Positions 42,001 through 45,000 of a stretch of DNA of 47,493 nucleotides are shown here, piece after piece. The position numbers are program-made. Source of the stretch: a virus. The stretch lies in UHGV virus genome UHGV-0021965. One strand, written 5' to 3'. Positions within the stretch are counted from its first letter, which is position 1. Each line of letters starts with the position of its first letter.

Positions 42001-45000
42001 TCTGGAAGCTGGATCGGCTTGGACGCTCACTCATACATCTCGTCGATTTACTGCGCTATTTCCGGGCTAATAATATTGAATTTGTCTCAATCACAGAGGG
42101 GATAAGAATCAGCACATCAATCGGCCGATTCGCATACACAATGCTGAGTGCTGCGGCTGAGATGGAAAGAGAAAATATCATTGAAAGAACGAGAGCAGGT
42201 TTAGCTGTGGCAAGGGCAAAGGGAAGAATAGGTGGGAGGCGTCCAAAGCTCACCCAGGAACAATGGGACCAGGCGGGCCGACTGATTGCGAACGGCGTGG
42301 ACAGGAAGCAGGTGGCGATCATCTACGATGTGGCTGTGTGCACGCTTTATAAAAAATTCCCCGTTTCAAAACCGGCTTAAATTTGCTCACACAGAGTTAC
42401 TGTAACAAAATTTACAAAACTCATAATTCGAAGCGACATAGAAACTTAGAAACGAAACGGCGAAGCTTTAAGCATTCATGACAGACTCTCTGTCTTGCGT
42501 GCATACCCAAATGAAACTACTGTATATAAAAACAGTATTTGAGGTATGCAACATGGAATTTATCAGGCCTGCAGAACTGCGAGAAATTATTGCTCTCCCG
42601 CTTTTCAGTGACTTAGTGCAGTGTGGTTTCCCAAGCCCTGCGGCTGATTACGTTGAACAGCGCATCGATCTCAATGAGTTACTTGTTGCTCACCCGAGCT
42701 CAACGTATTTCGTCAAAGCCGCGGGCGATTCAATGATCGAAGCCGGGATTAGCGACGGCGATCTGCTGGTGGTGGACAGCTCCAGGACTGCTGAGCATGG
42801 TGACATTGTCATCGCTGCGGTGGAAGGGGAGTTCACTGTTAAACGCCTGCAGCTGCGCCCGACCGTGCAACTCAACCCTATGAACAGCGCCTACAGCCCG
42901 ATTGTTGTTGGCAGCGAAGACACGCTGGACGTTTTCGGCGTCGTGACTTTCATCGTTAAATCTGCGAGCTGAATATGTTTGCTCTCTGTGATGTGAATTC
43001 GTTCTACGCATCATGCGAGACTGTATTCAGGCCGGACCTGAGAGGGCGGCCGGTTGTTGTTCTCTCAAATAATGATGGCTGTGTAATCGCACGCAGCGCA
43101 GAAGCAAAAGCGGTCGGAATCACTATGGGGGAGCCATTCTTCAAGCAAAAGGAGCTTTTCCGGCGCGCTGGCGTTGTTTGCTTCAGCAGCAATTACGAGC
43201 TTTACGCTGACATGTCGAACCGGGTAATGACGACGCTTGAGGAAATGAGCCCCCGCGTTGAAATTTACAGTATCGACGAAGCTTTTTGCGACCTGACAGG
43301 TGTTCGCAACTGCCGGGACCTGACTGAGTTCGGCAAAGAGATCCGCGCTACGGTTCTGAAGCGGACGCATCTGACGGTCGGGGTTGGCATTGCCCAGACG
43401 AAAACACTGGCGAAGCTGGCCAACCACGCCGCGAAGAAATGGCAGCGGCAAACGGGCGGGGTAGTGGACCTGTCCAATATCGATCGCCAGCGACGACTCC
43501 TTGCCCTGGTACCTGTAGAGGATGTGTGGGGCGTCGGTAGGCGCATCAGCAAGAAGCTAAACGCCATGGGCATAAAAACTGCCCTCGACCTTTCTGAACA
43601 AAGCACGTGGATTATTCGAAAGCACTTCAATGTCGTCCTGGAGCGAACGGTCCGGGAGCTGCGCGGCGAACCATGTCTTGATCTGGAGGAGTTTGCGCCG
43701 GCAAAGCAGGAAATCGTCTGCAGTCGGTCATTTGGCGAACGCGTTACTGAGTATGAGCAGATGCGCCAGGCTATCTGCAGCTATGCCGCCCGTGGTGCTG
43801 AAAAACTTCGGGGTGAGCATCAGTACTGCCGCTTTATCTCTGCGTTCGTGAAAACCTCTCCCTTTGCGCTTAACGAGCCGTATTACGGTAACAGTGCGTC
43901 CATGAAGCTTCTCACACCCACTCAGGATTCCCGCGACATTATCAACGCCGCGGTAAAGTGCCTGGACAAAATCTGGAAAGACGGTCACCGGTACCAGAAG
44001 GCAGGAATCATGCTTGGGGATTTTTTCAGCCAAGGCGTGGCACAGTTGAATCTTTTTGACGAAAACGCGCCGCGGGCTGGAAGCGAAAGGTTGATGGAAG
44101 TGCTCGATCATCTGAATGCTAAAGACGGGAAAGGAACACTCTACTTTGCCGGGCAAGGCATACAGCAGCATTGGCAGATGAAACGCGAGATGCTTTCACC
44201 ACGATACACCACACGTTACAAAGACTTACTGGTCGTTAGGTAAAGGCTTTAATTTTTGAAATCGCATTTCTTTCAAATGTGATTTTCATCTTGGATACAC
44301 AATATAGTGTTGTTAAGATGATGTATCTAAAAAAATAGTAATTCTTTTCGACGGACTGTGATAGTAATGAATGTAGTCGATTTTTTATCAAGTGACATTT
44401 GGCAAGGATTGAGTGTTTTATCCCCTATAGCCATTTCGTTATGTGCGATTCTATACTCTAAATTTCTTTTCAAAAGAGGTTTTCGAACTAAAAACTCTCG
44501 CTTTAAAGACACAAAAAACCTACCAAAAGATTTGTATGAAGGACAAAATACAACACTTTACGGCAAAGTTAGAGAAGAGGTTTTTCCAGGCCCACCAAAT
44601 TATGAGTCCATAAATGATGGGGATGAGCCGCAGTTCTACTGGATTCTTTATGTAAATGAACCTATTAAGCTGGCGGGACGAAGCATGGAGGATGATTCTC
44701 TTTATGAAAAAGGATCATCATGTATGTTCCAGTTATGTCTTACACGCGAAATTTATGATAAACGATTAGATATCCTTAATAAATATGTTAGTGTTGAAGG
44801 AGAGATTTTTTTAGGGCATACAGGCCACCATAAAACCAAAGCTCTTTTGAATGTAAGCACTATAAAAATTATTAAATAATTAGCATGGTAGTCTAGCTTT
44901 TTAAACTCTTTGGATTAGTAATTTTCCCTTATTTGATGTTGTATTAATTCAACACCTTGGTTGTTTGGATTTCCCACGGCACGCGACACTGCGTGCCAGA

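What the first reader, a model, noticed from the sequence alone, without database searches (positions are those of the whole stretch)
42478..44243. Prophage-borne umuDC operon under a consensus LexA box
A near-perfect LexA box (TACTGTATATAAAAACAGTA) precedes full-length UmuD and UmuC homologues. The prophage therefore brings an extra error-prone polymerase to its host, induced by the same signal that induces the prophage.
Basis: partly seen in the sequence, partly recalled or inferred. Interest (0 to 1): 0.5.

Follow-up and report, generated by a model that had tools for sequence, protein, structure and literature searches.

The report
Prophage-borne SOS-regulated umuDC (Pol V) operon
A lambda-like prophage inserted in the tmRNA gene carries an intact, LexA-controlled copy of the error-prone DNA polymerase V genes umuD and umuC, but the same cassette is already annotated in several sequenced phages and found in hundreds of viral contigs, so it is real but ordinary.

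Summary
A 20-bp LexA box (42518-42537), identical to the E. coli K-12 umuDC operator, precedes an intact umuD (42553-42972, 139 aa; the true start is not 42478) and umuC (42975-44243, 422 aa). The proteins are 79% and 84% identical to K-12 UmuD and UmuC without gaps. All residues needed for UmuD self-cleavage and UmuC catalysis are present.

The operon is truly phage cargo. It lies inside a 47.2-kb lambdoid prophage bounded by a 32-bp direct repeat of the ssrA 3' end. The same module (tail fibre, sometimes an invertase, umuDC, convergent SRAP gene) ends prophages at other attachment sites and occurs in phage isolates (PHB10, CobraSix, Oslo). At least 600 IMG/VR contigs carry relatives. The best 80 keep both reading frames, the key residues and the LexA box, and dN/dS is about 0.03.

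The prophage repressor is lambda-cI-like and self-cleavable, so prophage induction and Pol V induction probably share the RecA* signal.

Phage-borne Pol V orthologues are in the literature and in PHROGs. Verdict: interpretation supported, already known, low interest. Mutagenic activity, and whether the benefit goes to host or phage, remain untested.

The parts
206..237 (.). Left att repeat: a 32-bp copy of the ssrA 3' end, on the integrase side of the prophage
   Evidence: Exact direct repeat of 47417-47448, and only two copies in the window. The flank at 1-205 resembles the native sequence downstream of ssrA in E. coli K-12.
1130..2299 (-). Tyrosine integrase of the prophage
   Evidence: Pfam Arm-DNA-bind_2 and Phage_integrase.
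6646..7305 (-). Lambda-cI-like prophage repressor with an S24 autocleavage domain
   Evidence: Pfam HTH_3 and Peptidase_S24. Aligns with lambda cI (3bdn) and keeps VQAG, GESM and VKKL at the positions of Ala111-Gly112, Ser149 and Lys192.
42495..42523 (+). Inferred umuDC promoter: -35 TTGCGT (42495-42500), 17-nt spacer, -10 TACTGT (42518-42523) overlapping the left half of the LexA box
   Evidence: Same geometry as the aligned K-12 region, TTGATC-17 nt-TACTGT. This is inferred. The generic consensus scan reports no promoter here because the hexamers are weak.
42518..42537 (+). LexA (SOS) box TACTGTATATAAAAACAGTA
   Evidence: Unique in the window, with 0 of 100 shuffles matching. Identical to the K-12 umuDC box. 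A LexA box is present upstream of all 76 UmuD genes found among 80 IMG/VR loci, this exact 20-mer in 53 of them, and it ends 15 nt before the ATG in 71.
42553..42972 (+). umuD, 139 aa (S24 autopeptidase, Pol V accessory subunit)
   Evidence: Pfam Peptidase_S24 E=2.6e-30. NCBIfam PRK10276 162 bits. 79.1% identical to K-12 UmuD without gaps, with C24-G25, S60 and K97 present.
42975..44243 (+). umuC, 422 aa (Y-family polymerase, Pol V catalytic subunit)
   Evidence: Pfam IMS, IMS_HHH, IMS_C and DUF4113. NCBIfam PRK03609 872 bits over the full length. 84.1% identical to K-12 UmuC without gaps, with D6, F10-Y11, D101-E102 and QLNLF 357-361 present.
44915..45598 (-). SRAP (YedK-like) gene, convergent with umuC, conserved partner of the cassette
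   Evidence: Pfam SRAP E=7.7e-51. N-terminal MCGRF with Cys2. Found downstream and convergent in 52 of 80 IMG/VR loci, and 22 of the others end less than 1.5 kb after umuC.
45826..46065 (-). dinI-like gene
   Evidence: Pfam DinI E=2.6e-21. phrog_189, RecA filament binding protein DinI.
46105..46124 (-). Second LexA box, 39 nt upstream of the dinI-like start codon
   Evidence: TACTGTAAATATATACAGTG, 2 mismatches to the consensus. Similar boxes precede dinI-like genes in 8 of 11 IMG/VR loci that have one.
47417..47493 (-). Right att repeat (47417-47448) within the 3' end of the host ssrA (tmRNA) gene, cut by the window edge
   Evidence: Rfam tmRNA 72 bits, E=2.9e-26, model positions 296-374. Repeat shown.

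Best explanation
This is an intact umuDC operon encoding a DNA polymerase V (UmuD'2C) orthologue. It is carried as accessory cargo in the right arm of a lambdoid prophage integrated into the 3' end of ssrA, between the tail-fibre/invertase genes and the attachment site.

Shown by sequence: both genes are complete, under strong purifying selection, and preceded by a LexA operator identical to the E. coli umuDC operator, which overlaps the inferred -10 element.

Inferred from the established E. coli Pol V pathway: in the lysogen, LexA holds the operon off tightly. DNA damage creates RecA* filaments, LexA self-cleaves, and UmuD and UmuC are made. RecA* then promotes cleavage of UmuD at Cys24-Gly25 by the Ser60/Lys97 dyad. 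UmuD'2C plus RecA-ATP performs error-prone translesion synthesis on the beta clamp through the QLNLF motif.

The prophage's own repressor is a self-cleaving lambda-cI type. The same RecA* signal therefore turns on Pol V, and at higher or longer damage induces the phage. The neighbouring LexA-controlled dinI-like gene and the convergent SRAP gene probably belong to the same DNA-damage cargo set.

The cassette is a common, already annotated feature of Enterobacter and Escherichia-type siphophages.
For: The LexA box is unique and beyond chance and identical to the K-12 box with the same promoter geometry. Published HI for that box is 2.77. Family scores are far above the curated cutoffs. The alignment to K-12 has no gaps, 79% and 84% identity, and every catalytic, cleavage and clamp residue present. 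The att repeats bracket the whole element and no third copy exists. The same module occurs in phage isolates and in prophages at other att sites. At least 600 IMG/VR contigs carry relatives; in the best 80, 78/78 UmuC and 76/76 UmuD are intact with all key residues and a LexA box. dN/dS is 0.01-0.05 at dS 0.3-1.8. The repressor has the lambda cI cleavage residues. PHROGs holds UmuD-like and UmuC-like phage families that match over the full length.
Against: No activity data exist for this clade in the papers I could search. The generic sigma-70 scan finds no promoter, so the promoter is inferred only by alignment with K-12. No intrinsic terminator was detected after umuC, so the transcript's end is unknown. 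Read-through from the late operon on the same strand cannot be excluded. The host genome is unseen, so 'extra' polymerase is an assumption.
Confidence: 0.9

Rival explanations
1. The main beneficiary is the phage, not the host. The cassette supplies translesion synthesis for damaged phage DNA during induction or infection (a built-in Weigle-reactivation function), and host mutagenesis is a by-product. This overlaps with the best explanation on mechanism and differs only in the selected function.
For: The cassette sits at a fixed position at the end of the late-gene arm, on the late-gene strand, with no terminator detected between the invertase and umuD. It shows strong purifying selection across many phages. 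It is linked to the SRAP and dinI-like damage genes. Some Enterobacter genomes already hold two or three copies, so a host-level gain from one more copy is not obvious.
Against: Tight LexA control identical to the host gene fits expression in the lysogen before lysis. Related phages with near-identical structural genes (HK225, mEp237, N15) lack the cassette: their matches end near window 40200, and only three phage records match umuDC by DNA. So it is dispensable for phage growth.
Confidence: 0.3
2. The proteins act mainly as regulators rather than as a polymerase. Uncleaved UmuD2C would act as a replication checkpoint, or UmuD'2C together with DinI would damp RecA* activity, to tune the timing of prophage induction.
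For: A LexA-controlled dinI-like gene lies 1.6 kb away. In established E. coli biology, DinI inhibits UmuD cleavage and the Umu proteins modulate RecA and replication. A mobile element's own regulators are known to interlock with its Pol V genes in R391 (PMC8460599).
Against: All polymerase catalytic residues, the steric gate and the clamp motif are invariant in 78 of 78 related viral copies. That conservation is not expected if only a regulatory role were selected. No copies of the prophage operator-like repeat occur near the umuDC promoter.
Confidence: 0.08
3. umuDC is host chromosomal DNA lying next to the prophage, or part of a second element integrated in tandem, and is not packaged with the phage.
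For: The right arm is compositionally mosaic: umuDC 53-57% GC, the DUF4431 gene 34-36%, dinI about 40%, AbiTii 33-39%. It also contains a 47-nt tRNA-Pro fragment that looks like a relic att site.
Against: Only two ssrA att copies exist and they bracket everything from the integrase to AbiTii. The tRNA-Pro fragment lies 2 kb beyond umuC, on the far side from the tail genes. Linear genomes of phage isolates carry the same operon right after their tail-fibre genes. Prophages at icd and near ydeJ carry it just inside their right ends.
Confidence: 0.02
4. The operon is a decaying, non-functional relic.
For: None found beyond the absence of experimental data.
Against: The ORFs are intact and full length, all key residues are present, dN/dS is about 0.03, and the operator is conserved.
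Confidence: 0.02

Closest known systems
E. coli K-12 chromosomal umuDC (DNA polymerase V)
   Same: Same gene order, same protein lengths (139 and 422 aa) and gapless alignment at 79% and 84% identity. Identical 20-bp LexA box and the same -35/-10 spacing. All cleavage, catalytic, steric-gate and clamp-binding residues are shared.
   Different: It sits in a prophage right arm rather than at the chromosomal locus where K-12 umuDC lies next to dsbB. umuD and umuC are separated by 2 nt, whereas in K-12 they overlap by 1 nt. The box ends 15 nt before the ATG rather than 19 nt. UmuD residue 15 is Leu rather than Phe in the FPLF stretch. DNA identity to K-12 is only about 70-72%.
umuDC of phage isolates Escherichia phage PHB10 (MK524177), Enterobacter phage vB_EclS_CobraSix (OK499971) and Salmonella phage vB_SosS_Oslo (JQ806764)
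   Same: UmuC is 96%, 95% and 93% identical. In PHB10 and Oslo the operon sits directly after the tail-fibre genes and before the integrase/att region, with the same LexA box and the same conserved 170-nt upstream region. PHB10 also carries an SRAP gene downstream.
   Different: The attachment and integrase modules and the neighbouring morons differ. Neither phage has the invertase or the DUF4431 gene at this position. Oslo's record annotates UmuD as a 79-aa fragment, although the full 139-aa frame is open.
Plasmid- and ICE-borne Pol V orthologues (mucAB, impAB, samAB, rumAB)
   Same: LexA-regulated umuD-like/umuC-like gene pairs carried by mobile elements. The literature lists bacteriophages, R-plasmids and ICEs as carriers (PMC8460599).
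   Different: These are much more distant. 4966 of the best 5000 plasmid records are 60-80% identical to this UmuC, typically 62-66%, and only 33 exceed 80%. I found no sign of the element-specific second repressor site described for rumAB.
Bacteriophage P1 HumD
   Same: A phage-encoded UmuD-family protein.
   Different: HumD is a stand-alone, pre-processed UmuD' analogue without a UmuC partner (established knowledge). This protein scores 104.8 bits, below the NCBIfam HumD cutoff of 120. It keeps the 24-residue N-terminal arm and is paired with umuC.
Prophage-linked umuDC of Acinetobacter baumannii
   Same: Error-prone polymerase genes carried on prophages and induced by DNA damage (PMC3978071; phage records).
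   Different: Only 34-40% identical. They are regulated by UmuDAb/DdrR rather than LexA, because Acinetobacter lacks LexA (abstracts).

Membership tests
DNA polymerase V operon (umuDC type) | UmuD: S24 (LexA-like) peptidase fold scoring above curated family thresholds | tested here: met
   Pfam Peptidase_S24 105 bits (cutoff 23.3). NCBIfam PRK10276 162.2 bits (cutoff 110).
DNA polymerase V operon (umuDC type) | UmuD self-cleavage site Cys24-Gly25 and the Ser60/Lys97 catalytic dyad | tested here: met
   Gapless alignment to E. coli UmuD (8gmt_B, 1umu). C24-G25, S60 and K97 are present.
DNA polymerase V operon (umuDC type) | UmuC: Y-family polymerase with catalytic carboxylates (D6, D101, E102) and steric gate Y11 next to F10 | tested here: met
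   All are present at the E. coli positions. The roles of Y11 and F10 come from PMC3401427. The carboxylate roles come from established knowledge of Y-family polymerases.
DNA polymerase V operon (umuDC type) | Full UmuC architecture: palm/fingers (IMS), HhH thumb, little finger (IMS_C) and the UmuC-specific C-terminal domain (DUF4113) | tested here: met
   All four Pfam domains found in order. NCBIfam UmuC model matched at positions 1-422 of 422, 872 bits (cutoff 431).
DNA polymerase V operon (umuDC type) | Beta-clamp-binding motif QLNLF at residues 357-361 | tested here: met
   The motif is present at 357-361 and in 78 of 78 related viral copies. Its function comes from established E. coli work.
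DNA polymerase V operon (umuDC type) | umuD immediately upstream of umuC in one operon, preceded by a LexA box overlapping the promoter | tested here: met
   A 2-nt spacer separates the genes. The box is identical to the K-12 box and aligned with the same -35/-10 geometry. Promoter activity itself was not tested.
DNA polymerase V operon (umuDC type) | RecA*-dependent UmuD processing, Pol V Mut assembly, and translesion synthesis or mutagenesis activity | not testable with these tools
   This needs genetics or biochemistry. It is inferred only from 79-84% identity to the characterised E. coli proteins.
Phage accessory cargo (moron) in the lambdoid right arm | Lies inside the att-bounded prophage, between the tail-fibre genes and att, and is present or absent among otherwise related phages | tested here: met
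   att repeats at 206-237 and 47417-47448. HK225, mEp237 and N15 share the structural arm up to about 40.2 kb, but only three phage records match umuDC by DNA. The same position is used in PHB10, Oslo and the E. coli prophages.
Phage accessory cargo (moron) in the lambdoid right arm | Autonomous transcription unit with its own promoter and its own terminator | tested here: inconclusive
   The promoter is inferred by homology. No intrinsic terminator was detected downstream of umuC, and none upstream between the invertase and umuD.
Plasmid/ICE Pol V orthologues (mucAB, impAB, samAB, rumAB) | Closest relatives are the plasmid- or ICE-borne copies | tested here: not met
   Plasmid homologues are mostly 60-66% identical. 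That compares with 84% to K-12 chromosomal UmuC and 94-99% to copies in Enterobacter genomes, which are nearly all SRAP-linked and partly tail-gene-linked. Named MucB, ImpB and RumB sequences were not aligned individually.
P1 HumD family | Scores above the HumD equivalog cutoff; a pre-processed UmuD'-like protein without a umuC partner | tested here: not met
   104.8 bits, below the cutoff of 120. The N-terminal arm and cleavage site are retained, and umuC is adjacent.

The most novel reading that the evidence does not exclude
The conserved set at the phage right end (umuDC under a tight LexA box, a convergent SRAP gene for abasic-site shielding, and often a LexA-controlled dinI-like gene) is not a random collection of morons. 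It would be a co-adapted phage 'damage-tolerance kit' that lets the phage genome replicate through lesions when it is induced from, or infects, DNA-damaged cells. That would amount to a phage-encoded Weigle-reactivation system, with DinI setting the delay before UmuD is processed. The short 69-101-aa ORFs that replace UmuD upstream of near-identical UmuC genes in some Enterobacter loci would then be alternative, cleavage-independent polymerase partners.
Probability: 0.15. Interest if true: 0.45.

Novelty: already known. Interest (0 to 1): 0.15.

Why it matters
Mobile copies of error-prone polymerases can raise stress-induced mutation rates, and so speed the evolution of antibiotic resistance, in whichever strain acquires them. 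ICE-borne Rum polymerase has been linked to rapid drug resistance (PMC11602152, listed). A temperate phage that spreads an intact, SOS-controlled Pol V among Enterobacter, Escherichia and Salmonella is one more such vehicle. This instance adds no new principle: the cassette is common, annotated, and almost identical in organisation to the textbook E. coli operon. The useful results here are the corrected start codon, firm placement of the operon inside the prophage, and the observation that umuDC, SRAP and often dinI travel together.

Tried and rejected
(1) Generic promoter and terminator scan of 42300-44950. It found no promoter upstream of umuD and no terminator after umuC. I did not take this as evidence against expression, because the aligned K-12 promoter has equally weak hexamers. 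The promoter is therefore inferred by alignment.

(2) A search for a third att copy that would signal tandem elements found none.

(3) A search for copies of the prophage's operator-like repeat (6542, 6577, 7351) near the umuDC promoter, to test for repressor co-regulation like SetR/CroS, found none.

(4) A PDB sequence search with UmuC returned only Dpo4/DinB-type polymerases at E of about 1e-26 and no UmuC entry, so no closer structural comparison was possible. Structure prediction was not run, because 84% identity to K-12 UmuC makes it unnecessary.

(5) An Rfam permissive scan of 46150-46450 for the tRNA-like fragment gave only sub-threshold chance hits. Direct alignment with K-12 proL settled the question.

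(6) Pfam on the short ORFs that replace UmuD in loci L100 and L105 gave no significant family.

(7) The 15-nt inverted repeat GACAGActcTCTGTC just upstream of the -35 was considered as a regulator site. I dropped it because it is not conserved as an inverted repeat in PHB10 or Oslo.

(8) Host identification. The 45 host-derived nucleotides of ssrA differ from K-12 at 3 positions and matched no named genome among the fetched loci, so the host stays unassigned. Enterobacter is a guess based on the closest UmuC copies.

(9) The large protein-database searches (search for homologous proteins, the search of protein representatives) were deliberately not used, because the cheaper searches already answered the question.
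Full report
OBSERVATION. The 20-mer TACTGTATATAAAAACAGTA is present once, at 42518-42537. 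No dinucleotide-preserving shuffle of the window produced a match with up to two mismatches. The looser core CTGT-N8-ACAG occurs six times against 0.52 expected. Three of these are good LexA boxes: 16066, 42518 and 46105. Two ORFs follow the 42518 box on the + strand. The finding's start, 42478, is only the first ATG of the open frame. A protein starting there would read through the operator and carry 25 extra residues not seen in E. coli UmuD or the related phage copies examined. The supported start is ATG 42553, 8 nt after GAGG. This gives a 139-aa UmuD (42553-42972), followed after a 2-nt spacer by a 422-aa UmuC (42975-44243).

IDENTITY OF THE GENES. UmuD matches Pfam Peptidase_S24 (E=2.6e-30) and the NCBIfam Pol V autoproteolytic subunit model (162 bits, cutoff 110). 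UmuC matches IMS, IMS_HHH, IMS_C and DUF4113, and the NCBIfam UmuC model end to end (872 bits, cutoff 431). Against E. coli K-12 the proteins are 79.1% (110/139) and 84.1% (355/422) identical with no gaps. UmuD aligns with the solved UmuD and UmuD' structures and retains the Cys24-Gly25 cleavage site and Ser60 and Lys97. It also keeps 9-LREI-12, and has LPLF where K-12 has FPLF at 15-18. UmuC retains D6, D101-E102 and 357-QLNLF-361, plus the F10-Y11 steric-gate pair. The roles of F10 and Y11 are documented in PMC3401427.

REGULATORY REGION. I aligned the upstream region with K-12, two phages and two E. coli prophages. The LexA box is 20/20 identical to the K-12 umuDC operator and is the best-conserved block. 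The window also has the same arrangement as K-12: a -35-like hexamer (TTGCGT against TTGATC), a 17-nt spacer, then TACTGT, which is the left half of the box. The published heterology index of that operator is 2.77, one of the tightest LexA sites, with no detectable basal expression in E. coli (PMC2994835). The index depends only on the 20-nt sequence, so the same value applies here. The generic promoter scan found nothing upstream of umuD, and no terminator downstream of umuC. The promoter is therefore inferred by homology, and the 3' end of the transcript is unknown.

IS IT REALLY PHAGE-BORNE? The window is a lambdoid prophage. Its early region is 92-95% identical to Escherichia phages Eeyore, LLS and Flotzy. 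Its terminase-to-tail arm is 92-99% identical to HK225, mEp237 and N15. The right edge of the window holds the 3' end of the tmRNA gene ssrA on the minus strand (Rfam 72 bits). Its last 32 bp are repeated exactly at 206-237, and there are only two copies. The integrase (1130-2299) lies next to the left copy. The left flank resembles the native sequence downstream of ssrA in K-12. So the element spans about 47.2 kb, and everything from the integrase to the AbiTii gene, including umuDC, lies inside it.

Independent support comes from other genomes. In phage isolates PHB10 and Oslo, umuDC follows the tail-fibre genes and precedes the integrase. CobraSix, ST846-OXA48phi9.2 and ENT39118 also carry it. 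E. coli prophages inserted at icd and beside ydeJ carry tail fibre, (invertase), umuDC, a small ORF and SRAP just inside their right ends. The rival reading that this is host DNA beside a prophage is therefore rejected.

HOW COMMON, AND UNDER WHAT SELECTION. In those 80 loci, 78 of 78 recovered UmuC genes are 422 aa with all checked residues. Likewise, 76 of 76 recovered UmuD genes are 139 aa with the CG site, S60 and K97. All 76 have a LexA box, the exact window 20-mer in 53 of them, ending 15 nt before the ATG in 71. Most copies lie within a few kb of a contig end, as expected for a gene next to att. dN/dS against PHB10, Oslo and an E. coli prophage copy is 0.01-0.05 at dS 0.3-1.8. Among one genome per species, the 94-99% copies are almost all in Enterobacter species, sometimes two or three per genome. 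They are usually linked to a 90-95% identical SRAP gene, and often to tail or invertase genes. The E. coli chromosomal copies sit at 84% with no such neighbours. Only 15 of 5426 complete E. coli genomes carry the phage-type operon by DNA search. Plasmid homologues are mostly 60-66% identical, so the operon is of the chromosomal umuDC type, not the mucAB/impAB/samAB type. PHROGs already contains the corresponding families: phrog_811 (UmuD-like protein) and phrog_1268 (DNA polymerase, 670 bits).

NEIGHBOURS. Downstream lie four genes:
- a low-GC (34-36%) DUF4431 gene;
- a convergent SRAP (YedK-like) gene starting MCGRF;
- a dinI-like gene with its own LexA box 39 nt upstream of its start;
- an AbiTii-domain gene next to ssrA.
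SRAP is downstream and convergent in 52 of the 80 viral loci, and 22 of the remainder end too soon to tell. DinI is present in 11 loci and DUF4431 in 3. SRAP next to UmuCD, and SRAP in temperate phages, were described by Aravind and colleagues (PMC3765255).

MECHANISM. Shown: intact genes, a conserved operator, phage linkage and purifying selection. Inferred from E. coli Pol V biology (summarised in PMC8460599): LexA represses the operon, RecA* triggers LexA cleavage, UmuD is cleaved to UmuD', and UmuD'2C with RecA-ATP carries out mutagenic translesion synthesis on the beta clamp. The prophage repressor (6646-7305) has HTH and S24 domains. It aligns with lambda cI and keeps VQAG, GESM and VKKL at the Ala-Gly, Ser and Lys positions. 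No copy of the prophage's operator-like repeat lies near the umuDC promoter, so there is no sign of the double control seen for rumAB on R391. Whether selection acts through the lysogen (damage tolerance, mutability) or through the phage (replication of damaged phage DNA) cannot be decided from sequence. I give the phage-benefit reading about 0.3, not exclusive of the first.

COMPARISON AND NOVELTY. The literature states that Pol V orthologues occur on bacteriophages, R-plasmids and ICEs (PMC8460599). Prophage-linked umuDC is described in Acinetobacter (PMC3978071). GenBank records of PHB10, Oslo and the Klebsiella and Cronobacter phages annotate the same operon. This window is one more copy of an already annotated, abundant cassette. 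I found no functional study of this enterobacterial phage clade in the searchable library, so its activity is still formally untested.

VERDICT. Novelty: already known. Interest: 0.15.

Noticed in passing
window 46279-46325 (minus strand): A 47-nt stretch identical to the 3' part (positions 31-77) of E. coli tRNA-Pro(GGG) proL, followed by a terminator-like hairpin (about 46228-46265). It sits inside the prophage between the dinI-like and AbiTii genes. It looks like a relic attP core from a proL-integrating ancestor. The block of fragment, AbiTii and ssrA is shared at about 80% with CFT073-type E. coli genomes.
   Followed up: partly
window 16066-16085: A strong LexA-box-like sequence, TACTGTAAATATAAACAGTG (3 mismatches to the consensus), lies within codons 3-9 of a phage DNA methyltransferase ORF (16058-17110, Pfam N6_N4_Mtase). 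Whether LexA controls this methylase or a nearby transcript was not examined.
   Followed up: no
window 46105-46124 and 45826-46065: A dinI-like gene has its own LexA box 39 nt upstream of its start. Similar boxes precede dinI-like genes in 8 of 11 related IMG/VR loci. Together with umuDC, the prophage carries at least two SOS-controlled cargo units.
   Followed up: partly
window 39835-42380: An invertible tail-fibre arrangement. A serine DNA invertase (41823-42380, phrog_125) sits next to opposed tail-fibre C-terminal ORFs (39835-40986 on +, 40952-41695 on -), as in Mu Gin or P1 Cin host-range switches. The recombination sites were not mapped.
   Followed up: no
window 44358-44879: A low-GC (34-36%) gene encodes a DUF4431 protein with a hydrophobic N-terminus, inserted between umuC and SRAP. 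It is present in only 3 of 80 related viral loci, so it is a separate, recently acquired moron of unknown function.
   Followed up: partly
loci L100, L101 (7695-8000), L105 (7725-8000), L114 (1133-1342): In several Enterobacter genomes a UmuC 88-95% identical to this one is preceded by a 69-101-aa ORF instead of a 139-aa UmuD. That ORF has no Pfam hit, and its C-terminus resembles the last strands of UmuD (for example ...DEVEVMGVVTFFI). It lacks the regions containing the cleavage site and Ser60. A LexA box is still present upstream. It may be a cleavage-independent UmuD' substitute.
   Followed up: partly
window 6542-6561, 6577-6596, 7351-7370: Three copies of a 20-nt repeat (AATGTACYTTTKGTTACCTT) flank the cI-like repressor gene and are probably the immunity operators. 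None occurs elsewhere in the window.
   Followed up: partly
locus L002 (Salmonella phage Oslo) 6146-6565: The GenBank record annotates UmuD as a 79-aa fragment (6326-6565), but the full 139-aa frame from 6146 is open and aligns codon for codon with the window's umuD. PHROGs has a 79-residue 'UmuD-like' family (phrog_10470) that may stem from such truncated calls.
   Followed up: partly
window 47449-47493: The host-derived part of ssrA differs from E. coli K-12 at 3 of 45 positions (GACAAACT against GACTGACT; GTAGAAAT against GTAGGAAT). The window matches a 48.1-kb ENA metagenome contig (ERZ27287262 k141_629792). The host is probably an enterobacterium other than K-12-like E. coli, but it was not identified.
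   Followed up: partly
window 46329-47297: An AbiTii-domain (abortive-infection-like) gene lies directly next to the ssrA att site, at 33-39% GC. It is a likely anti-phage defence cargo at the extreme right end of the prophage.
   Followed up: no
window 26786-26838 and 9250-9324: A 9-bp tandem repeat (CCGGCAGCA, 4-5 copies) lies inside a structural-gene ORF. A set of 15-nt repeats in the replication region (inside ORF 8947-9819) looks like origin iterons.
   Followed up: no
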